From contig CAZUJQ010000002.1 in NCBI GenBank assembly GCA_964620805.1, forward strand, positions 6,253-70,252: DNA of 64,000 nt, given 5' to 3'. The notes under the pieces are model-generated. The model was not told where the DNA came from. It saw only the letters and a list, made by a program, of their open reading frames with translations, and did not search any database. The position numbers and the translations under genes were made by a program. The first letter of the stretch is position 1; each line of letters begins with the position of its first letter. Shown piece by piece: positions 479 to 19,342 of this stretch. This DNA comes from an uncultured Planctomycetales bacterium. GTDB lineage: Bacteria; Omnitrophota; Gorgyraeia; Zapsychrales; JAHFFX01.

Positions 479-1111
479 TTAAGGGAGGTGTTTAAGAAGA
501 TAGGGGGTGAGTGCGTAAATAAATTCGTGAATCCAATGAATGGCTTCTTTTTTTCTTCTCTCAGTGATATTGGCTGAAAGCCGAATCAAGGCACTGCTAT
601 GAGGCCTGCCGGTAAGAATGTTAAAGACCATCTTGATTTGTTGTTTCCAATAATTGGAAAGAAAGGAATTTCCGATTTTAAACCAATAGTAAGCATACTG
701 AGTATTCCCTTTCCATTCTAACAGTAAACGGTTTGCAGAGATTGTCGTTCCTCGATCAATCTGGAGAGAAAGCGGTTTTTTTTCTACAATCGATACCCCG
801 CCTCCCAAGTAACAAATTTCCGGTGGATGGAAGGCCTTACGATTATGCTGAGAATACACCATTAATAAGTAAACTTTTTTCTCTCCAGAGGTATAAATAC
901 GAGCGAGGACATTTCTCGTCTCGAGAATTGCATAATCGTCTTCCGACACAGGGACATCCTCACCTTTCCAGTCGCCTATTTGTTTAGGAAAATGATATAT
1001 GTTTACGGTATCGTTTTTTAAATAAGCATTAAAATACAAATTCCATGATACCAGCCCTCCTATAAAGAGCATCATGAACGTTAAAAAAAAATTTTGACGG
1101 GATTCGTTCAT
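479..1111 (-). CDS. epsI: EpsI family protein (exosortase-associated, methanolan-biosynthesis type)
   Basis: 210-aa ORF with N-terminal TM segment and the size and sequence character of the EpsI family. It overlaps the exosortase stop by 4 nt (1108-1111), as expected for the EpsH/EpsI pair. Confidence 0.55.
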   Translation of the reverse strand: MNESRQNFFLTFMMLFIGGLVSWNLYFNAYLKNDTVNIYHFPKQIGDWKGEDVPVSEDDYAILETRNVLARIYTSGEKKVYLLMVYSQHNRKAFHPPEICYLGGGVSIVEKKPLSLQIDRGTTISANRLLLEWKGNTQYAYYWFKIGNSFLSNYWKQQIKMVFNILTGRPHSSALIRLSANITERRKKEAIHWIHEFIYALTPYLLKHLP

Positions 1112-2040
1112 TCCAATATTTTAGTTATAGTCCAAAGAAGAAGGAAGGCCAGGGCAAATACCATAAACCCAGATGCTGTGTGCAGAAATCCGGTTATATA
1201 CCGTGTTCCCCAAATTTCGTTTATCGATGATAAAGCAACTATTCTAAAGACATTGGTCATGATCGCGATAGGAATTGTTGAAAGAAAAAGCAAGATCTTT
1301 TTATACCACGGCCCTTTTAACCAATAGGCAAACAAACTCCCCAAGGCCGTTAACGACATTAAAGATCGCAAGCCGCTACACACATCGTCCACCATCACGT
1401 AAGCATGCATCATTTTAATAAGACTCCCCTCTCTAAGAGCAGACAAATGCAGAAAATGATTTAAGATATAGGTTGCCACTTGGGCGGCAAAGATTTTCAT
1501 CGAAAAGCTGATTTCGGTAATTAATATTTCGGGCAAGGGGGTCATAAAGGCCAGGAAAAAGATCGGGAAAAGAATCTGATATAAAATCTTTTTTCCAAAA
1601 AACCCTAGTATTAATCCGGAAAGAACAATGATCATGGTGAAACCTGCTATAAAGTATATTCGGAGAAATGAACTGAAAAAGAAAACAAAAACGCCCAGAG
1701 CTACCCATAGAATTCCTACCTTCGATGATTCTCTAGGGATGTGTCGGAGTTCGTCCCTTTTTTGCCAAATAAGATAGGCTGTCACCATCGGAATAAGAAT
1801 GCCATGAGAATAATAAGAATCCCGTGCCCACCAGCGATCCCACATCCAAACCAAAATCGGCGTATACATGAAAAGGTAAGCAATCCCTGAAAGGAATTCT
1901 TGATGGTATTTTCGAAATCCAAATCGGATCGTATTGATCATGAGAATTCGAGAAGAAAATTTTAAGGATTGATCACTCCTGCTCGGCAAGGCGGGCCTTC
2001 TGCCACGCCACAGCCTGTCTTGCCCCGATAAATCGGACAA
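1108..2040 (-). CDS. exosortase (XrtA-like, EpsH family); true start probably an internal Met near 1941
   Basis: Polytopic membrane protein with 'WDRWWARDSYYSHGILIP' and a conserved Cys ('DVCSGLRSL'), typical of exosortases. The first ~33 codons overlap the upstream GT2. Confidence 0.65.
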   Translation of the reverse strand: MSDLSGQDRLWRGRRPALPSRSDQSLKFSSRILMINTIRFGFRKYHQEFLSGIAYLFMYTPILVWMWDRWWARDSYYSHGILIPMVTAYLIWQKRDELRHIPRESSKVGILWVALGVFVFFFSSFLRIYFIAGFTMIIVLSGLILGFFGKKILYQILFPIFFLAFMTPLPEILITEISFSMKIFAAQVATYILNHFLHLSALREGSLIKMMHAYVMVDDVCSGLRSLMSLTALGSLFAYWLKGPWYKKILLFLSTIPIAIMTNVFRIVALSSINEIWGTRYITGFLHTASGFMVFALAFLLLWTITKILE

Positions 2041-5454: not shown

Positions 5455-8400
5455 CTACGTGGATTGCTCTTTTTGACAATGATGACTGCAGCCATCGTCA
5501 TCGAGGATATTGCCATCATCGCAGGCTTCGGTTGAGGCTTGGAAAATGCCGTTTCCGCAAATCTCGGTGATACAATGGCGGTCGCATCCGTCCCGATCTT
5601 TGCGATTGCCATCGTCACATAATTCTCCCGGCTGGAGGATACCATTCCCACAGAGTTCTATTTGACAAGAGGCATCGCATCCATCCCCGTTTCTGGAATT
5701 GCCATCGTCACACTGCTCTGTTTTTTGATTGACAGAGCCATCTCCACAGAAGGTCTCTTTTTCTTCCTCCTCCTGCTTTTCCTGTTCTTCTTGCTTTTCC
5801 TCTACTGGAATTAGAGCATCCAGGGATTGAAGGGTTTCTTCCAGGGAGATTGAGGAGGCTGGGGAGTCGTCCTGGAGAGTTTGTTTGCTTTTGCTTTCAA
5901 TGGCCTCTATGAGATTTTTTCGTGATTCGATGGCCTTCTTGACCAAAAGAAACTGTGAGGGAATTTGTTCATTGGCTGATCTCCCCTTGGAATTTTGAGT
6001 TAAACCCACGGGTTTAGGGGTTTGCGTTGTTTTTGTTTGATTGGATTTTTTTATGGAAGACTCTTTGCCATAGGAATCAACCGAGCTTGTCTGGGTTGTT
6101 GTCTTAGGTCTGAAAGTGTCTTGGATCTTAGGCCCGGGGATCTTAAAGCGCGAAGAATAAGAACCCGTATTACTCCTGCTCCCACCGCCACCGCTGCCAC
6201 CAGCGACGACCGAAGAACCACCCTTGCCTTTTTCCACTGTCACTTCTGGGAGAGGAGTGGGACTTAGGGGAATAGACGTTATGTTGGATTTCACATTTGG
6301 ACTAGACTCATTGGCCGGCGGTTTGACAATAGGCTCCTCTTTTTTATCCGTTTGCTCTTGAGGGGGCACGGTATCGGTTATTTTCGGTTGAGGATAAGAT
6401 GATATTTCCACTTTCGGCGAAGCATCCTCCTGAGGAGGCTGGATAACGGGTTGGAGCACGGGGGCCTCTTCTTTTTTCGGCTCCATCTTGGTTTCTTCCT
6501 TTGGGGACTCGATTTTGACTTCTTCTTTCTTGGGTTCTACCTTGATCTCCTCCTGCTTCGGTTCAATCTTGATCTCCTCTTTCTTGGGCTCGATCTTGGT
6601 CTCTTCCTTCGGCAGATTGACCAGGGGCTCAGGCGGCTTGGGGGGATCGATGTCCTCTTTCTTGGCCTCAACCTTGGGCTCCTCTTTCTTGGGCTCCACC
6701 TTGACTTCTTCCTTCGGCAGACTGACCAACGGTTCAGGTGGCTTAGGGGGATCGATCTTGACTTCCTCTTTCTTAGGTTCAGTCTGGGATGATTGCGAGG
6801 GCTGTGACGTTTGAGACGGTTGCGACGCTGGAGATGGCAGAGGAGTTTTGGGCAGCTCTATCTTGATTTCCTCCTTCTTTCCCGATTCCTGGAAATTCAC
6901 CAAAACAATTTTGGGATCACTGGTTGAACTTGAGGAGCTTGTTGGTGAATTTGTCTGCGGAGGATTTTGGGCTGATGGTAAGCTAATAGGATTCGCTTGC
7001 TTAGGTTCCCCCTTTGTTGTACCCGCCGTCGAAGAGTCTGGCTGGGGAAAACGGCTGGAACCGAATTCCAACGCCCCGATATCCCAGGATGCGCCACGAT
7101 CAAACTCATTGTAATCTAAATTCGATAAACCCGGAATCACCAAAGCCGCGTTGATGGCCGGGCTGCCGGCCAAGAGATCCAGGTTATATTCAGCACCGGA
7201 ATAAAAGGAAATGATCGGCCCAATCAATTTGGGGTCCGTGCATTTGGAATGGGATTTATCTTTACAATCGCTGGCAAAGTTTTTTGTATTCCATATAATC
7301 GAGTAATCATCATTCATCGGCAGACTTCCGCAGGGACCATCGGCATTCCCTGTCCTGCCAGAGGCGTAATACAAAGCCGATAAATCTTTGCCGTCATTAA
7401 ACTCGATTCCTCCTAAAAAGATATTGTTTCTGGAGGTAAAAGTCTCTTTCCCAGTGCATTCGGAACCTGAAGACAAAACGATCACATCGCCGTTCCCTGT
7501 GATGGTGCTATTGAGGAGATTGACTTTTGTTCCTGCTCTAAAAGCAGCAGCGATGCTGCTTCCCGCGGCCCGGCAGTGGTTAAAGGTCGCCGACTTCCAA
7601 GTGAAGGGTTGGTTTTTGAAGTACCCACAATTGCCAACGATGAGTGAGTTTTCGATAACCGTGTCTGCCGAGACTTTCACTTGATTGCCCGCATTACCCT
7701 CAAAGCGGGACCGTTTAATTGTGATCGTGCCGTTTCCATTGTGATAGAGCAAATCCAGGCCATCGGAGACATTGTGGCTGAAATCCACGTTGTGGAAGAC
7801 CCAATAGCCGCCGGTGGAATGGGTCCCCAGGCCATCCCCGTATCCACCCTGATCCTGACTGTAGCAATTGTAAGGCTGCTTTCCTTGGGCCAGGCCGGCC
7901 TGCCCGGGGAGGGGATACGTTTCCCCGCATCCGCTGTAAAGGATTTTGGTCCGGTTAAAAGTCATGGTCCCGGAATTGGAGGATTGATTGGCCCCGATAT
8001 CGCCATCCCAGCCCACAAAAGAATTATTGACGATTTGGGAATCTTCGATGGTCCAGTCCTTGATCCGTCCAGCATGAATTCCCCGGTACAAACCGTGGAT
8101 GGCGACGTTTTTAATGAGAACATTGCTGCTATCCGAGGCAGAAATCCCCGTTACTGCCCATTCGCCATAGGGAGGTGCCCCGTCTCTTTTACAAGGTTTA
8201 GGGCCGAAGACCTGGCAGTCGGAATGGTCGGTTATGTCGAGACATTGCAATTCCACATTGTTGCTTGCCTGCAGGCTCAAAACTTGCCATATCCTCTCCA
8301 CGCCAAACAATTGGGGAGGATTGCTACAGTCCGCATCCCAGCCTTTGCCTAAGATTCTTGTGGGACGGGCGGGATCTGGCCCGGAAGGAATCGAGCGCAT

Positions 8401-8763
8401 GACGCAATCCCATGGCCAATTGGGATAACATTTTGAGGTGTCGCCGGTATTGGGAGCACCATAGCCTATTTTATATTCCCCCAACCCAATAATGAGAGTA
8501 TCCCCCCCTTGTAGTTTCGTCGGATTATTTCCGATGGGAGCGATGGCCCAGAAGGGATGATTCCAGGCACAGGATTGATTCTTTCCGGAGCCGGGGTAAG
8601 GATTATCAGCAAGACCAGTGCATTGGGAGGTCGTCCCACCATCGGGCCGGACGTAGTAGGTGGCGGCATGGGCTAAATTTGTTAGGAAAAGAGTCCACAA
8701 AAAAAGGATCAGGAGGTTTCGTACAATCTTATGCTGGGGGTTTGATGACATGGTTGACCTCAT
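5455..8763 (-). CDS. large secreted right-handed beta-helix (pectate-lyase-like) protein with Pro/Glu/Lys-rich repetitive linker and three C-terminal Myxococcus cysteine-rich repeats
   Basis: Signal peptide ('LLILFLWTLFLTNLAHA'); 'YYVRPDGG' start of a parallel beta-helix with 'NVAIHG' / 'SNNVELQ'-type repeat segments. Long EPKKEE/PPKPPEPLV repeat linker, and 3 copies of CGxGxxxxxExCDDGNxxxxDGCxxxC at the C-terminus. Confidence 0.7.
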   Translation of the reverse strand: MRSTMSSNPQHKIVRNLLILFLWTLFLTNLAHAATYYVRPDGGTTSQCTGLADNPYPGSGKNQSCAWNHPFWAIAPIGNNPTKLQGGDTLIIGLGEYKIGYGAPNTGDTSKCYPNWPWDCVMRSIPSGPDPARPTRILGKGWDADCSNPPQLFGVERIWQVLSLQASNNVELQCLDITDHSDCQVFGPKPCKRDGAPPYGEWAVTGISASDSSNVLIKNVAIHGLYRGIHAGRIKDWTIEDSQIVNNSFVGWDGDIGANQSSNSGTMTFNRTKILYSGCGETYPLPGQAGLAQGKQPYNCYSQDQGGYGDGLGTHSTGGYWVFHNVDFSHNVSDGLDLLYHNGNGTITIKRSRFEGNAGNQVKVSADTVIENSLIVGNCGYFKNQPFTWKSATFNHCRAAGSSIAAAFRAGTKVNLLNSTITGNGDVIVLSSGSECTGKETFTSRNNIFLGGIEFNDGKDLSALYYASGRTGNADGPCGSLPMNDDYSIIWNTKNFASDCKDKSHSKCTDPKLIGPIISFYSGAEYNLDLLAGSPAINAALVIPGLSNLDYNEFDRGASWDIGALEFGSSRFPQPDSSTAGTTKGEPKQANPISLPSAQNPPQTNSPTSSSSSTSDPKIVLVNFQESGKKEEIKIELPKTPLPSPASQPSQTSQPSQSSQTEPKKEEVKIDPPKPPEPLVSLPKEEVKVEPKKEEPKVEAKKEDIDPPKPPEPLVNLPKEETKIEPKKEEIKIEPKQEEIKVEPKKEEVKIESPKEETKMEPKKEEAPVLQPVIQPPQEDASPKVEISSYPQPKITDTVPPQEQTDKKEEPIVKPPANESSPNVKSNITSIPLSPTPLPEVTVEKGKGGSSVVAGGSGGGGSRSNTGSYSSRFKIPGPKIQDTFRPKTTTQTSSVDSYGKESSIKKSNQTKTTQTPKPVGLTQNSKGRSANEQIPSQFLLVKKAIESRKNLIEAIESKSKQTLQDDSPASSISLEETLQSLDALIPVEEKQEEQEKQEEEEKETFCGDGSVNQKTEQCDDGNSRNGDGCDASCQIELCGNGILQPGELCDDGNRKDRDGCDRHCITEICGNGIFQASTEACDDGNILDDDGCSHHCQKEQST
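6590..6790. repeat. tandem ~120-bp in-frame repeat inside the giant gene (encodes DPPKPPEPLV[SN]LPKEE.KVEPKKEE units)
   Basis: Directly visible duplicated DNA and protein segment. The + strand shadow ORFs 6451..6792 and 6488..6814 are artefacts of this repeat. Confidence 0.7.
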
Positions 8764-9474
8764 AATAAAAAAACCTATTCTTCTGTTGGGGCTTTACGCA
8801 GCAATCTCGAAGAATAGGTATGAATGACCCGTGCTTCAAAAAGGTTAAACCCTTCTGTGACACGTAATGCATTCCCTGTTTTGGCAGCTGGCTGCCTCTC
8901 CGAAATTGTTCGGTTTAAGGCCCTGCCCCAACGCTCGTTTCTCTCGGCACCGACGTTCTCTGGGAAATTTATATGAGGTGGTCGGAGTGCCGACTGTAAC
9001 GTCGGCATCGGGGTCCCGACTTTCCCGACGCCCCGCCCTTGCGGGGGTCGGGACTCCGACCGAGTTCAACGAACGTCGGAGCCTTTTGAATTTAATCAAG
9101 GAAACGTCGGGATAGTTTTGCCCCGGCTTCGCTCAAATGCTTTCGCTTTGAGTCCGCCTTCGTCAAATACTTTACGTGTTTGACTTCGGCGGCTCCTGCG
9201 TAGCTCGAACAAAAGAGTATTCGAGCGAAGCAGGACCTCGCCGGGCCCCTACTACTTCGCTTTGCGAAGCAAAGCGGTAGGGGGTCTCCGCCTTACGGCA
9301 GATTTGCCCTTATCAGTACAGACTTGACAAAAGAGCAATTTTTACTTTACGGTTGGAGTATAACATGAGCCGCGCCCTCTTGTCAAATACCTATCCTCGA
9401 TGAGATTTAATAAAATCAAGGGGCTTTTCTTTTGCTCGTTTATAGTCCTTAGGAGGGATGTTGTTGAGAGATCG

Positions 9475-10251
9475 TCACTTCCCTAAAAGATGCTCTCTTA
9501 AGCCATCATAGGCCCTCGGCCCTAAAACTTTTTTTGCGAGACCTTTCATCGTCTTCCCGCACACATCCCCCAATGGCTGATGCCCCAACAACGCCTCCTC
9601 AAACCGCCTTAGCGACCAGGAGCCTTTGACCGGCATACGTCCGATACAATTCTTATAAGGAAGAAACCCATTCTGGGAAACGAAGATATGCGAGTAGCCG
9701 ATCTCACGCGCCATATCCACAATCTGTCTATTAAAAAACCCCCGGGGGGCCGAGAAATACGCCACCTTCACCCCTAAGGATTCTTCCAAAATCTCCTTGG
9801 ATTCCATAAACTCTCTTTGAAGCTCCTCTTCACTGCGGTTTAAAAGGATCTCATGATTTAATCCGTGCGACCCGATCGTCATGCCTCCTCTGATAAGCTC
9901 CTTGAGCTGCGGCCAATCCATGTATCCTTTTTGTCCAATCCGGTTGACCGTGACGAAAAAGAGAGCCGGAAATTGATGCTGCTTTAAGATCGGATAGGCC
10001 TGCGTAAAGTTGTTCATCTCTCCGTCATCGAAGGTCAAGATAACTTGTTGTGCCTGCGTGTCTTCAGCCGGTGAAACGCCAACAGTAACATGATATTTCT
10101 TTTTTTTAATAAGTCCCATCTGTTGTTGAAAATTTTCTGCGGGAACATCATAAAGGCGAGCTCCCGGCTCGCGATTTTCCGGAATTTCTGACGGATTCTC
10201 CGGTGTGCCATGATACATGAGGGCGATGATGGGCTGGGGTCGTTTTTTCAT
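9475..10251 (-). CDS. polysaccharide deacetylase (NodB-homology domain)
   Basis: 'ILTFDDGEMNNFTQAYPILKQHQFPALFFV', 'MTIGSHGLNHEIL' NodB motifs. Confidence 0.65.
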   Translation of the reverse strand: MKKRPQPIIALMYHGTPENPSEIPENREPGARLYDVPAENFQQQMGLIKKKKYHVTVGVSPAEDTQAQQVILTFDDGEMNNFTQAYPILKQHQFPALFFVTVNRIGQKGYMDWPQLKELIRGGMTIGSHGLNHEILLNRSEEELQREFMESKEILEESLGVKVAYFSAPRGFFNRQIVDMAREIGYSHIFVSQNGFLPYKNCIGRMPVKGSWSLRRFEEALLGHQPLGDVCGKTMKGLAKKVLGPRAYDGLREHLLGK

Positions 10252-17894: not shown

Positions 17895-18707
17895 TTATGC
17901 TTTGTTTGGACAAAGCAATCTCAAAACATTCTCTTTCGTAAAGACCTTCATGTCCAACGGATTCTCCAGGAAATTCACCACATCGCGGTGCACCTTCCGC
18001 CAGTCGGCTTTATCCACCACTTGATAGAGGAAATCCCGCCAATTGTCTTCCCGCGGGATCTCCTTTGTCCATCCCGTTTGCGTCAAGGCATTATGCAGCA
18101 ACCGAATGTTGGGTTTGATATCCCTCCAGCGGGATAGATACCATCCCAAATCAAAAAAGTCCCGGCCTTTGGTGTATTTGCGGCTCAGCAAAGCAGACAC
18201 TTTGCCGGCAAAGAATGACGGAAGATCGAAGGTCAAAAAGGCAAGCGGAAAATATTTGTTGATGATTTGTATTTCGAGCCGGCTGCCCTCAGGCGGGTTG
18301 GTATCAATTTCGATCTTGACCGATAATTTCTGTTTTTTTAACGGGGAGAGACCTGCTTCATACAGCAGTCCCTCGAACTTAACAAAGGCCGATTGAACCG
18401 TTTTGACTTCATTGTAAGTCACCGAAACGTTGTAGCCGGCCAGATCCAATTCCTGCTTGAGCTTCTTGATGAGCTTGACAAAAGACAATGTCCTGCCTTG
18501 TACATGGGAAAAGTCCAAATCCTCGGAAAAGCGAGGCAGATTGTGCAAAAACCGCAGGGCCGTTCCTCCCCAAAAAGCCGTTGTTTGAAAAATCCCGTCA
18601 TCATGGAGAATCCTTAAGACATAGGCCTGCAGATATTCCCGCATCGTATTGAGCCTGACCTGGGATCCTTCCTTCGCGCCCGTCAGCTCTAGGAGGTAGT
18701 CTTTCAT
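17895..18707 (-). CDS. nucleotidyltransferase AbiEii/AbiGii toxin family protein
   Basis: 'FWGGTALRFLHNLPRFSEDLDFS' (DUF1814/AbiEii signature); 4-nt overlap with the upstream AbiEi-like gene. Confidence 0.65.
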   Translation of the reverse strand: MKDYLLELTGAKEGSQVRLNTMREYLQAYVLRILHDDGIFQTTAFWGGTALRFLHNLPRFSEDLDFSHVQGRTLSFVKLIKKLKQELDLAGYNVSVTYNEVKTVQSAFVKFEGLLYEAGLSPLKKQKLSVKIEIDTNPPEGSRLEIQIINKYFPLAFLTFDLPSFFAGKVSALLSRKYTKGRDFFDLGWYLSRWRDIKPNIRLLHNALTQTGWTKEIPREDNWRDFLYQVVDKADWRKVHRDVVNFLENPLDMKVFTKENVLRLLCPNKA

Positions 18708-19342
18708 AAAGTTTTCTCTTTCTTTTTATAGGCCAGGACATAATCTTTAATCATGGCAGCGGATTGTTCCATACGCGGTTTGCCGAAGCGCCTGGCGTAT
18801 TCCGATAATTTCCGCAGGTTGATTTTTTCGACATTTTGCAGGCGCAATTCCGCCAGATAATCCATCGAGACGTCCACATGCCTGAAATAGATCAGATCCA
18901 GAATGGATTTTTCCGGCTCCGCCATAAAAGCTGTTTGCTTTCTGACCTCCAGGGAATGATATCCCCAAAAAAGCGACTGCTGAATGTGCCGGTAATCAAA
19001 AATCCCCACCGGGGTATTAAAACGGCCCTGGCGTTTCGTGGTGACCGCCGTATAAACATTTACAGCCTCCGGAATCAGATTGTGAAATTCCAAGGCCTTC
19101 TCTAAGCTGATGTAGGAAGGCCTCTTCAGAAGGCTGGCGACAGCCGGCTCGAAGATTTCAATCCCTCGATAAGGTTCGGCAAGGATATAAATCCCCCGCT
19201 TTAACTGGATCAACTTGCCGGCCTTTTCCCAGCGGCTGATTTGAACCTTAATCGCATCCGGCTTGAGGGCCCCGGCTGAAAGAATCTGAGTATTGATAAC
19301 CGGCAGATGCTTCACCTGTGAGATGAGCTCAGCAAAGTCCAT
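18704..19342 (-). CDS. AbiEi-family antitoxin (type IV TA / abortive infection partner)
   Basis: 212-aa protein immediately upstream of and overlapping AbiEii; N-terminal wHTH-like region. Confidence 0.5.
   Translation of the reverse strand: MDFAELISQVKHLPVINTQILSAGALKPDAIKVQISRWEKAGKLIQLKRGIYILAEPYRGIEIFEPAVASLLKRPSYISLEKALEFHNLIPEAVNVYTAVTTKRQGRFNTPVGIFDYRHIQQSLFWGYHSLEVRKQTAFMAEPEKSILDLIYFRHVDVSMDYLAELRLQNVEKINLRKLSEYARRFGKPRMEQSAAMIKDYVLAYKKKEKTL

What the first reader, a model, noticed from the sequence alone, without database searches (positions are those of the whole stretch)
8764..9474. 700-bp highly structured non-coding region upstream of the giant beta-helix protein gene
This region has no credible ORF. 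It contains a 10-bp stem hairpin at 8774-8818 and a GC-rich nested stem (GTCGGAGT...CCCGACGCCCCGC-cctt-GCGGGGGTCGGGACTCCGAC) at 8982-9060. Further stems are GCTCGAACAAAAGAGTATTCGAGC and CGCTTTGCGAAGCAAAGCG, and the motifs GTCAAATAC and ACAAAAGAG recur.

This could be a long structured 5' leader or riboswitch-like regulator of the 3.3-kb adhesin/lyase gene, or an independent ncRNA.
Basis: seen in the sequence. Interest (0 to 1): 0.5.

Follow-up and report, generated by a model that had tools for sequence, protein, structure and literature searches.

The report
Split c-di-GMP riboswitch with giant insertions
The 700-bp "structured non-coding region" is the leader of a secreted beta-helix protein gene and holds a known type of RNA sensor for the bacterial signal c-di-GMP. 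Its sensing domain is cut into three pieces by two large self-folding insertions (162 and 187 nt), so standard annotation misses it.

Summary
All the stems exist, and the minus strand folds far better than shuffles (z = -9.8). The region is neither an unknown RNA nor an independent ncRNA.

It is a class I c-di-GMP (GEMM-I) riboswitch leader, read on the minus strand:
- a near-consensus promoter (9386..9357)
- the aptamer
- an intrinsic terminator (8819..8773 plus a U-run)
- the start codon at 8751

Eighteen relatives (Candidatus Omnitrophota) carry an Rfam-scoring c-di-GMP-I aptamer and the same terminator; 17 of them carry these just upstream of the orthologous gene.

In the window every core piece is present, including all 35 invariant positions and 16 of 17 core pairs. 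The core is interrupted twice:
- insertion A (9283..9122) lies directly 3' of the C44 equivalent
- insertion B (9111..8925) lies in a P3 bulge

Each insertion folds as a closed domain. Seven relatives carry shorter hairpin insertions at exactly these two sites. The five that Rfam does not score are all among those seven.

Whether the expanded aptamer still binds c-di-GMP is untested. I judge it about even. The origin of the insertions is unresolved.

Verdict: a new structural variant of a known riboswitch class, of moderate interest.

The parts
9357..9386 (-). Sigma-70-type promoter: -35 TTGACA (9386..9381), an 18-nt spacer with TG, and -10 TATACT (9362..9357). The inferred transcription start is near 9350.
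   Evidence: 11 of 12 consensus match with an extended -10. The same TTGACA-N17/18-TGnTAnACT arrangement lies upstream of the aptamer in relatives. The transcription start is inferred, not mapped.
9318..9322 (-). P1 5' strand (UCUGU). It pairs with ACAGG at 8879..8875.
   Evidence: It forms in the unconstrained MFE of the aptamer segment. Relatives have CUGUUG...CAACAG at the same place.
9284..9310 (-). Aptamer piece 1: AGGGCAAA, the P2 hairpin UCUGCC-GUAA-GGCGGA (9302..9287), then GAC. It holds the G20 equivalent (G9308) and the C44 equivalent (C9284).
   Evidence: Partial Rfam hit to c-di-GMP-I-GGC, 23.3 bits, E 0.0064. A core HMM built from relatives only hits 9318..9284. P2 pairs are all standard and include compensatory changes.
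9122..9283 (-). Insertion A (162 nt), made of hairpin A1 (9283..9246) and a four-way domain A2 (9245..9122) closed by CCCGGC/GCCGGG. It sits between the C44 and G45 equivalents.
   Evidence: Absent from 16 aptamers in relatives. L009, L098, L099 and L126 have 41-52-nt two-hairpin inserts at the same phosphodiester. It folds as a closed domain at -84.9 kcal/mol, z = -7.7. The fold is the same in the constrained whole-aptamer fold.
9112..9121 (-). Aptamer piece 2: J2/3 and the start of P3, GCAAAACUAU. It holds the A47 equivalent (A9119). G9121 and C9120 pair with C9306 and G9307.
   Evidence: It aligns to GCAAAGCUAU of relatives. It is followed by CCCGACGUU, as in L011 and L013.
8925..9111 (-). 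Insertion B (187 nt), a GC-rich nested-stem domain closed by CCCGACGUUU / AAACGAGCGUUGGG. It sits in the bulge of the P3 5' strand (CUAU|AGGGCC).
Evidence: L011 and L013 have a 52-nt insert at the same site with the same termini and a shared GGGACCCCGA. L026 has an unrelated 58-nt insert there. It folds at -96 kcal/mol, z = -6.3.
8883..8924 (-). Aptamer piece 3: P3 (AGGGCCUUAAACCGAACAAUUUCGGAGAGGCAGCCAGCUGCC). It holds the G83 equivalent (G8892) and the C92 equivalent (C8884).
   Evidence: It is the best hit of the relatives-only core HMM in the whole window, 8924..8879, E 0.0012. P3 pairs are standard apart from one A.C.
8875..8879 (-). P1 3' strand (ACAGG).
8822..8874 (-). Hairpin between the aptamer and the terminator (GAAUG...CAUUC). 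It is part of the expression platform and its role is unknown.
   Evidence: Predicted in the MFE of the leader. It has not been tested by covariation.
8767..8819 (-). Intrinsic terminator: 11-bp stem ACCUAUUCUUC / GAAGAAUAGGU (8819..8809 with 8783..8773), a 25-nt loop and a U-run (8773..8767).
   Evidence: Perfect inverted repeat I9. The same CCUAUUCU...AGAAUAGG plus U-run follows the aptamer in relatives. The consensus scan missed it because its loop exceeds 8 nt.
5455..8751 (-). The regulated gene: a 1098-aa secreted protein with a signal peptide, a conserved ~560-aa right-handed beta-helix domain and C-terminal DUF4215 cysteine-rich repeats. A GAGG Shine-Dalgarno sequence lies at 8760..8757.
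   Evidence: Gene callers on identical contigs start it at this ATG.

Best explanation
The region is the 5' leader of the beta-helix protein gene, about 585 nt long, transcribed on the minus strand from a promoter at 9386..9357. It is a class I c-di-GMP (GEMM-I) riboswitch that works by transcription attenuation: an aptamer followed by an intrinsic terminator 15 nt before the start codon.

**What is unusual.** The aptamer is not contiguous. Its three core pieces are 9310..9284, 9121..9112 and 8924..8883. They are separated by two large, independently folding insertions.
- Insertion A is 162 nt and lies immediately 3' of the C44 equivalent.
- Insertion B is 187 nt and lies in a bulge of P3.

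Each insertion closes on itself. The flanking core nucleotides can therefore come together and form the usual three-helix junction around c-di-GMP.

**Proposed mechanism (inferred, not shown).** When c-di-GMP is bound, the folded core (P1, J2/3 and P3) is unavailable for alternative pairing, the terminator forms and transcription stops. This is an OFF switch. Without ligand, transcription reads through into the gene.

**What is shown and what is inferred.**
- Shown: the anatomy, the homology of the pieces, and the recurrence of the insertion sites.
- Inferred: ligand binding by the expanded aptamer, and the ON/OFF direction.

The stated confidence is for the identification as a split c-di-GMP-I riboswitch leader. 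I put the probability that it still responds to c-di-GMP at about 0.5.
For: **1. Orthologous position.** Rfam gathering-score hits to c-di-GMP-I (RF01051 or RF03167, 43-72 bits) occur in 18 fetched Omnitrophota loci, in 17 of them directly upstream of the orthologous gene (in L012 about 3.2 kb upstream). Each is followed by the CCUAUUCU...AGAAUAGG plus U-run terminator.

**2. All core pieces are present, in order, on the right strand.**
- An HMM built from relatives only gives its two best hits in the whole 64-kb window at 9318..9284 and 8924..8879.
- The in-silico spliced sequence scores 50.3 bits, E 7e-15.

**3. Core conservation.**
- The spliced core keeps all 35 columns that are invariant in 22 sequences.
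- It forms 16 of 17 core pairs, including window-specific compensatory pairs. The alignment is 99.5% paired, with covariation above all 500 shuffles and all slid controls.
- The equivalents of the ligand contacts G20, A47 and C92, and of the universally conserved interhelical pair C44-G83 (named in PMC4744006), are all present: G9308, A9119, C8884, C9284 and G8892.

**4. The insertion sites recur.**
- Site A carries two end-to-end hairpins in L009, L098, L099 and L126.
- Site B carries inserts in L011, L013 and L026.
- L011 differs from its close relative L094 by a precise 52-nt indel.
- All of these keep the core and the terminator.

**5. The insertions are closed, very stable domains.** They give z = -7.7 and z = -6.3. 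They keep the same fold whether or not the native core is enforced.

**6. A conserved promoter precedes the aptamer**.

**7. OFF logic in relatives.** In 13 of the 22 relatives tested (11 of 19 intact-junction loci with p <= 0.003, plus L103 at p = 0.010 and spliced L011), the terminator 5' arm CCUAUUCUUUGUG is complementary to the aptamer segment ACAAAGCUAUAGG, at -12.8 to -20 kcal/mol.
Against: - Rfam itself does not call the window: there is no gathering-score hit, and the only match is a 23-bit half-aptamer hit.
- Insertion A sits next to the binding pocket, between C44 and G45, where a 162-nt domain could well prevent ligand binding.
- One P3 base pair next to the junction is an A.C mismatch in the window.
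- The native-core fold is 13 kcal/mol less stable than the MFE in the nearest-neighbour model.
- The only other copies of the window's insertions are identical contigs, so their structure cannot be tested by covariation.
- The antiterminator complementarity seen in many relatives is not significant in the window. The J2/3-P3 strand is split by insertion B, and the alternatives have p = 0.09 to 0.56. The switching mechanism in this particular leader is therefore not demonstrated.
- Full-length MFE folds always show the terminator.
- There are no expression or binding data.
Confidence: 0.85

Rival explanations
1. A disabled (relic) riboswitch. The same anatomy applies, but the two insertions, or just insertion A next to the pocket, have destroyed c-di-GMP binding. 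The leader would then act as a constitutive attenuator or stabiliser, and the intact-looking core would simply reflect a recent insertion.
For: - Insertion A lies between C44 and G45, beside the ligand contacts.
- There is an A.C mismatch in P3.
- The canonical antiterminator strand is split by insertion B, and no significant substitute was found.
- The terminator is the stable state in every fold.
- No curated model scores the window.
Against: - All 35 invariant core positions and 16 of 17 pairs are retained, although the window's core has diverged in sequence from every relative with compensatory P2 changes.
- The same two sites carry inserts in seven other relatives, scattered on the protein tree. 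All of these also retain the core and the terminator. That is what permissive sites would look like, not random disruption.
- The inserts are always fully self-paired from end to end.
Confidence: 0.4
2. The insertions are mobile or repetitive palindromic DNA elements (REP/MITE-like) that landed in the leader. This concerns the origin of the extra 349 nt and is compatible with either functional state of the riboswitch.
For: - Insertion B in the window and the 52-nt insert of L011 and L013 share termini (CCCGACGUU...CGU(C/U)GGGG) and an internal GGGACCCCGA, although their hosts lie in different clades.
- L011 and L094 differ by a precise indel.
- A hairpin in L017 (3844-3882, between terminator and start codon) shares TCCTGCGTAGCTC...GAGCGRAGCAGGA with window 9195-9235 and resembles window 9152..9123.
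Against: - No other copy of any part of the inserts exists in the 64-kb window or in about 1 Mb of fetched loci apart from L017.
- The CCCGACG and TCCGACG motifs occur at chance frequency in the window.
- No target-site duplication was seen.
- The single match in viral contigs lies inside a coding region of an unrelated GC-rich contig.
- A mild excess of short direct repeats links insertion A with the promoter and 5' leader, which hints at local duplication instead.
Confidence: 0.3
3. An independent structured ncRNA, or a novel riboswitch class unrelated to known families.
For: Very strong folding z-scores and no Rfam gathering hit.
Against: - The region is bracketed by a promoter, the aptamer pieces of a known class, and a terminator directly abutting the start codon. 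All three are shared with orthologous leaders.
- The extra structure is absent from most relatives.
Confidence: 0.03

Closest known systems
c-di-GMP-I (GEMM-I) riboswitch, Rfam RF01051 / RF03167, clan CL00126; type example Vibrio cholerae Vc2
   Same: - P2 hairpin with a GNRA loop, flanked by GGCAAA...GAC.
- J2/3 of the form GCAAA(A/G)C.
- P3 with the AG bulge and the GCC tail.
- Equivalents of G20, A47, C92 and the C44-G83 pair.
- A 5'-UTR location with an intrinsic terminator.
- Association with a secreted surface or polysaccharide-related protein in an exopolysaccharide locus.
   Different: - The aptamer is interrupted by 162 nt after C44 and by 187 nt in a P3 bulge. It therefore spans about 450 nt instead of about 90.
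- It fails the curated score.
- I found no description of such insertions in the searchable literature. That library is incomplete.
Insertion-bearing c-di-GMP-I aptamers of other Candidatus Omnitrophota MAGs (L009, L098, L099, L126, L011, L013, L026), apparently unannotated
   Same: They have the same two insertion sites, self-closed hairpin inserts, a conserved core and a conserved terminator. Rfam scores none of their full aptamers: L009, L026, L098, L099 and L126 get no gathering-score hit. L011 and L013 pass only through an alignment that substitutes part of the insert for P3.
   Different: They carry one insertion of 41-58 nt. The window carries both sites at once, each expanded to a multi-helix domain three to four times larger.
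Variable peripheral expansions in other structured RNAs, for example the long variable P3 stems of eukaryotic TPP riboswitches (own knowledge, not tested here)
   Same: A conserved ligand-binding core tolerates lineage-specific helical expansions at defined sites.
   Different: In those cases the expansions extend the distal ends of existing helices. Here they branch from an internal loop next to the ligand pocket and from a helix bulge.
REP / MITE-type palindromic repeats
   Same: Short terminal inverted repeats, perfect hairpins, presence or absence as precise indels, and nested arrangement.
   Different: No multi-copy dispersal was detected in the available sequence, and no target-site duplication was seen.

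Membership tests
c-di-GMP-I riboswitch (RF01051/RF03167) | Contiguous match to the curated covariance model at or above the gathering score | tested here: not met
   There is no gathering hit in the window. The best match is 23.3 bits against a threshold of 59, covering only the P2 half with a 37-position deletion. Truncated searches of each half also fail. The failure is explained by the two insertions. Of 23 distinct aptamer-bearing relatives, the 16 without inserts score 59.5-72 bits, and five of the seven with inserts get no gathering-score hit.
c-di-GMP-I riboswitch (RF01051/RF03167) | P2 hairpin with GNRA tetraloop, flanked by GGCAAA and GAC and closed by the G21-C46 / C22-G45 pairs | tested here: met
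   The window has GGGCAAA-UCUGCC-GUAA-GGCGGA-GAC. All 8 pairs are standard and two changes are compensatory. The closing pairs span insertion A.
c-di-GMP-I riboswitch (RF01051/RF03167) | Ligand-contacting nucleotides G20, A47 and C92, and the interhelical pair C44-G83 (PMC4744006) | tested here: met
   By alignment to Rfam-scored relatives these are G9308, A9119, C8884, C9284 and G8892. All lie in columns that are invariant across 22 sequences. The mapping to Vc2 numbering rests on my own alignment of the consensus.
c-di-GMP-I riboswitch (RF01051/RF03167) | P3 helix pairing J2/3-proximal AGCU and GGGCC with GGC-AG-CC-AGUU | tested here: met
   8 of 9 pairs are standard. One is A.C where relatives have G.U, A-U or G-C.
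c-di-GMP-I riboswitch (RF01051/RF03167) | Cis-regulatory position: 5' UTR with an expression platform | tested here: met
   The order is promoter, aptamer, terminator, Shine-Dalgarno sequence and ATG, and it is syntenic with relatives.
c-di-GMP-I riboswitch (RF01051/RF03167) | Selective binding of c-di-GMP and ligand-dependent gene control | not testable with these tools
   This needs in-line probing or ITC, and transcription or reporter assays.
REP / MITE-like mobile palindromic element (for the insertions) | Multiple dispersed copies in the same genome | tested here: not met
   There is no second copy in the 64-kb window, and the motif counts are at chance. The rest of the genome is not available, so the test is weak.
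REP / MITE-like mobile palindromic element (for the insertions) | Terminal inverted repeats, and presence or absence as a precise indel between close relatives | tested here: met
   The termini are CCCGACG...CGUCGGG, and L011 and L094 differ by a precise 52-nt indel.
REP / MITE-like mobile palindromic element (for the insertions) | Target-site duplication | tested here: not met
   No duplication longer than one ambiguous T is present at the L011/L013 junctions.

The most novel reading that the evidence does not exclude
The expanded RNA is a working c-di-GMP sensor with an aptamer of about 450 nt. Under this reading the C44|G45 linkage and the P3 bulge are natural ports in GEMM-I where whole folded domains can be grafted without loss of ligand binding. 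The recurrent two-hairpin insert at site A would then define an unrecognised structural subclass of c-di-GMP-I riboswitches in Candidatus Omnitrophota that current models systematically miss. The grafted domains may add function, such as binding of a protein or a second ligand, processing, or control of folding kinetics.
Probability: 0.35. Interest if true: 0.65.

Novelty: new variant of a known kind. Interest (0 to 1): 0.5.

Why it matters
**Annotation.** Curated covariance models miss this riboswitch. They also miss five of the seven insertion-bearing relatives found here and score the other two only by a wrong P3 alignment. c-di-GMP regulons in uncultured phyla such as Omnitrophota are therefore under-counted. 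A model that allows inserts at the two sites would recover these cases.

**RNA structure.** If the expanded aptamers bind ligand, they mark two positions in a well-studied riboswitch that tolerate insertion of whole folded domains, one of them right beside the binding pocket. That bears on aptamer engineering and on how structured RNAs grow.

**Biology.** The finding links c-di-GMP signalling to a family of secreted beta-helix / DUF4215 proteins encoded next to an exosortase-type exopolysaccharide locus, in a phylum with almost no experimental genetics.

Tried and rejected
- **Rfam on the window.** The gathering threshold gave nothing. The permissive search gave only a half-aptamer hit plus chance hits to rpfG, ar45, a CRISPR repeat, ctRNA and TLS-PK6. 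Cutting the search at the insertion borders to provoke truncated hits did not recover the 3' half.
- **Repeat-family idea.** blastn of the region against the window found no other copy. The CCCGACG and TCCGACG counts are at chance.
- **Hairpin module in viral contigs.** The pattern search gave one match, inside a coding region of an unrelated GC-rich contig. I judged it a chance match.
- **J2/3-P3 motif in viral contigs.** The scan found ordinary insertion-free GEMM-I aptamers only.
- **Antiterminator formed by the P1 3' strand and the terminator 5' arm.** This is nominally significant (p <= 0.04) only in L004, L007, L014 and L017, and not in the window.
- **Antiterminator supplied by the insertions.** This is not significant in any of eight cases. 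The window's A1 3' arm gives -13.9 kcal/mol, p = 0.09.
- **Purifying selection on insertion B, from L011 against L013.** The insert is identical in both, but the whole leader is about 96% identical, so this is uninformative.
- **Tandem-aptamer or duplication remnants inside insertion A.** A third weak core-HMM hit at 9155..9140 has E 0.09, and the direct repeats are only 9-mers. This is suggestive and not established.
- **Formal covariation on the site-A hairpins.** Only three alignable sequences exist and the automatic alignment is poor. Compensatory changes between L098 and L099 were read by eye.
- **ORFs inside the region.** None has a Pfam match.
- **Literature searches** for such insertions or for Omnitrophota c-di-GMP riboswitches found nothing.
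Full report
**Setting.** Region 8764-9474 lies between two minus-strand genes.
- Upstream is a polysaccharide deacetylase (10251..9475).
- Downstream is a 1098-aa secreted protein (8751..5455) with a signal peptide, a conserved beta-helix domain and DUF4215 cysteine-rich repeats.
- The neighbourhood is an exopolysaccharide locus. It holds several glycosyltransferases, a GH123-like hydrolase, Wzy, a Wzt-type ABC ATPase, exosortase EpsH with DUF3485, and pilin-like N-methyl proteins.
- Homologues of the large protein are mostly from Candidatus Omnitrophota.
- Three metagenome contigs carry the region with 100% identity.

**The observation.**
- The four ORFs of 50-84 aa that overlap the region have no Pfam match.
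- The minus-strand leader (9352..8752) folds at -266.5 kcal/mol against -186.4 +/- 8.2 for dinucleotide shuffles, z = -9.8.
- The minus strand folds better than the plus strand in most sub-windows.
- No other copy of the region or its parts occurs in the 64-kb window.

**What it is.**
- Rfam at curated thresholds finds nothing in the whole window. The permissive search gives one suggestive hit: 9317..9272 (minus) to c-di-GMP-I-GGC, 23.3 bits, E 0.0064, covering only the P2 hairpin half.
- The decisive evidence came from relatives. I fetched 79 genome loci and 80 metagenome loci encoding homologues of the beta-helix domain.
- nhmmer showed that two separate parts of the window's leader align to the short leader of the closest relative, L004. 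That leader, and L014's, read as a canonical GEMM-I aptamer plus terminator.
- Rfam confirms this. In total 18 loci have gathering-score c-di-GMP-I hits of 43-72 bits, in 17 of them just upstream of the orthologous gene. Each is preceded by a TTGACA-N17/18-TGnTAnACT promoter and followed by a CCUAUUCU...AGAAUAGG plus U-run terminator.
- The window has the same promoter, with an 11 of 12 match at 9386..9357. It also has the same terminator, 8819..8773 plus a run of seven U (8773..8767), 15 nt before the ATG at 8751.

**The split aptamer.** Reading the window against the relatives shows all core elements, in order, but in three pieces.
- Piece 1 is AGGGCAAA-UCUGCC-GUAA-GGCGGA-GAC (9310..9284).
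- Piece 2 is GCAAAACUAU (9121..9112).
- Piece 3 is AGGGCC...GGCAGCCAGCUGCC (8924..8883).
- P1 is formed by UCUGU (9322..9318) and ACAGG (8879..8875).

The evidence that these pieces are one aptamer is as follows.
- An HMM built from 21 relatives, without the window, places its two best hits in the entire window, both strands, at 9318..9284 and 8924..8879. It scores the in-silico spliced sequence at 50.3 bits, E 7e-15.
- In a 22-sequence alignment the spliced window keeps all 35 invariant columns.
- It forms 16 of 17 core pairs. The exception is an A.C in P3 where relatives have G.U, A-U or G-C. Overall the alignment is 99.5% paired. Seven pairs show changes on both sides, and covariation exceeds all 500 shuffles and all slid controls.
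- The nucleotides that PMC4744006 names as ligand contacts in Vc2 (G20, A47, C92), and the universally conserved interhelical pair, map to G9308, A9119, C8884 and C9284-G8892. All are present. The numbering transfer is my own alignment.

**The insertions.**
- Insertion A (9283..9122, 162 nt) lies between the C44 and G45 equivalents. It consists of hairpin A1 and a four-way domain closed by CCCGGC/GCCGGG. It folds at -84.9 kcal/mol, z = -7.7.
- Insertion B (9111..8925, 187 nt) lies at CUAU|AGGGCC. This is the position where Rfam's alignment already has an insert column in the P3 5' strand. It is closed by a 10-bp terminal helix and folds at -96 kcal/mol, z = -6.3.
- Both domains fold identically in isolation, in the unconstrained fold of the 453-nt aptamer segment, and when the native core pairs are enforced (-203.3 against -216.4 kcal/mol).

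**The same sites are used in relatives.**
- Site A carries 41-52-nt inserts in L009, L098, L099 and L126. Each folds as two adjacent hairpins that pair from the first to the last inserted nucleotide. The second hairpin shows compensatory differences between L098 and L099, read by eye.
- Site B carries a 52-nt insert in L011 and L013 and an unrelated 58-nt insert in L026.
- The L011/L013 insert shares its termini (CCCGACGUU...CGUCGGGG) and an internal GGGACCCCGA with the window's insertion B.
- L011 and its close relative L094 differ by a precise 52-nt indel within flanks more than 90% identical.
- On a neighbour-joining tree of the protein domain the insertion states are scattered, which implies several gains or losses.
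- All insertion-bearing relatives keep the invariant core and the terminator.
- Rfam detection tracks the inserts. All 16 distinct insertion-free aptamers score 59.5-72 bits. L009, L026, L098, L099 and L126 get no gathering-score hit. L011 and L013 pass only through an alignment that replaces P3 with part of the insert.
- Counting distinct loci, 8 of 24 aptamers in this gene family carry an insert. The window is the only one with both sites occupied, and its inserts are by far the largest.

**Mechanism.** The architecture, with promoter, aptamer, terminator and then the Shine-Dalgarno sequence and ATG, is that of a transcription-attenuating riboswitch.
- In 13 of the 22 relatives tested the strongly conserved terminator 5' arm (CCUAUUCUUUGUG) is complementary to the aptamer's J2/3-P3 strand (ACAAAGCUAUAGG). 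The duplex energies are -12.8 to -20 kcal/mol, with p <= 0.003 against shuffles in all but L103 (p = 0.010).
- This explains why a terminator is conserved in sequence. It also implies that ligand binding, by locking that strand into the aptamer, frees the terminator, which makes an OFF switch.
- In L004, L007, L014 and L017 the P1 3' strand and the sequence after it pair with the terminator 5' arm better than most shuffles (p 0.01-0.04), an overlapping but weaker signal.
- In the window neither complementarity is significant, and the J2/3-P3 strand is split by insertion B. The best alternative partner of the terminator 5' arm is the 3' arm of hairpin A1 (-13.9 kcal/mol), but p = 0.09.
- Full-length MFE folds show the terminator in nearly all leaders, so thermodynamic folding cannot settle the direction.

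I therefore treat attenuation as strongly supported by the anatomy. The OFF direction is an inference from relatives. Ligand responsiveness of this expanded aptamer is open, at about 0.5.

**Origin of the insertions (unresolved).**
- In favour of mobile palindromic elements are the shared termini of insertion B across clades, the precise indel, and a hairpin in L017. That hairpin lies between terminator and start codon. Its arms match window 9195-9235, and its inner part matches window 9152..9123.
- Against this, there is no other copy in the window or in about 1 Mb of loci, the motif counts are at chance, and there is no target-site duplication.
- A mild excess of exact 9-mer direct repeats (4 against 0.97 expected, p about 0.01) links the promoter and 5' leader with loops of insertion A. 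This hints at local direct and inverted duplication.

**Comparison and novelty.**
- The element works like, and by every sequence-level criterion except contiguity is, a c-di-GMP-I riboswitch.
- It fails the curated score solely because of the insertions.
- I found no description of GEMM-I aptamers with inserted domains, or of c-di-GMP riboswitches in Omnitrophota, in the searchable literature. That library is incomplete.
- I classify it as a new structural variant of a known kind, of moderate interest. Its value lies in the annotation blind spot and in the two apparent permissive ports of a well-studied aptamer, one of them beside the ligand pocket.

Noticed in passing
L026:3690-3835: The aptamer upstream of the orthologous gene in this Omnitrophota MAG has A instead of G at the G20-equivalent position (CUAGUAAACC against AAGGUAAACC), as well as a 58-nt site-B insertion. 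From my own knowledge, G20A-type GEMM-I variants in Geobacter sense 3'3'-cGAMP, so this one might have altered ligand specificity.
   Followed up: partly
L005:3810-3830 and equivalents in L006, L007, L008, L017, L022, L084-L086, L090, L094: The terminator 5' arm CCUAUUCUUUGUG is conserved in sequence because it is complementary to the aptamer's J2/3-P3 strand ACAAAGCUAUAGG (-14 to -20 kcal/mol, p <= 0.003). This is a built-in antiterminator that predicts an OFF switch.
   Followed up: yes
L017:3844-3882, compared with window 9195-9235 and 9123-9152: L017 has a hairpin between its terminator and start codon, UCCUGCGUAGCUCAACGCGAAGCAUUUGAGCGGAGCAGGA. It shares 13 of 13 and 12 of 13 nt of its arms with a hairpin inside the window's insertion A, apparently in the opposite orientation judging by the internal-loop bases. 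Its inner half matches another insertion-A hairpin. This could be a dispersed hairpin module.
   Followed up: partly
L005, L011, L013 and L094 leaders (alignment A5, columns 290-400): The 100-150 nt between the terminator and the start codon are also highly conserved, about 95% against 72-82% in the coding region. They contain further hairpins, for example UUGUCGGCUGGAUUAGCCGACAA. The leader may therefore hold additional functional RNA structure downstream of the terminator.
   Followed up: no
window 9162-9176, 9209-9217, 9327-9351, 9382-9390: Exact 9-mers from the promoter and 5' leader (GTATTTGAC at the -35 element, CGTAAAGTA near the transcription start, CTCTTTTGT in the early leader) recur inside hairpin loops of insertion A. 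CGTAAAGTA and GTATTTGAC overlap there as CGTAAAGTATTTGAC, which looks like a head-to-tail junction of the promoter segment. This may be a trace of local duplication.
   Followed up: partly
window 17895-19342 (minus strand): An AbiEii toxin / AbiEi antitoxin pair (type IV toxin-antitoxin) sits inside the glycosyltransferase cluster.
   Followed up: no
window 479-2040 (minus strand): Exosortase EpsH and a DUF3485 (EpsI-like) protein lie downstream of the regulated gene. The beta-helix protein itself has no PEP-CTERM tail and ends in DUF4215 repeats.
   Followed up: partly
L012:732-831: In this relative the c-di-GMP-I aptamer (63.7 bits) lies about 3.2 kb upstream of the matched beta-helix gene, so it presumably controls another gene or a longer operon.
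   Followed up: no
L164, L165, L166, L168, L172, L178 (IMG/VR contigs): Ordinary, insertion-free GEMM-I aptamers with the same CAAAGCUAUAGGGCC junction occur on contigs classed as viral. L166 has two in tandem, each with its own terminator-like hairpin.
   Followed up: no
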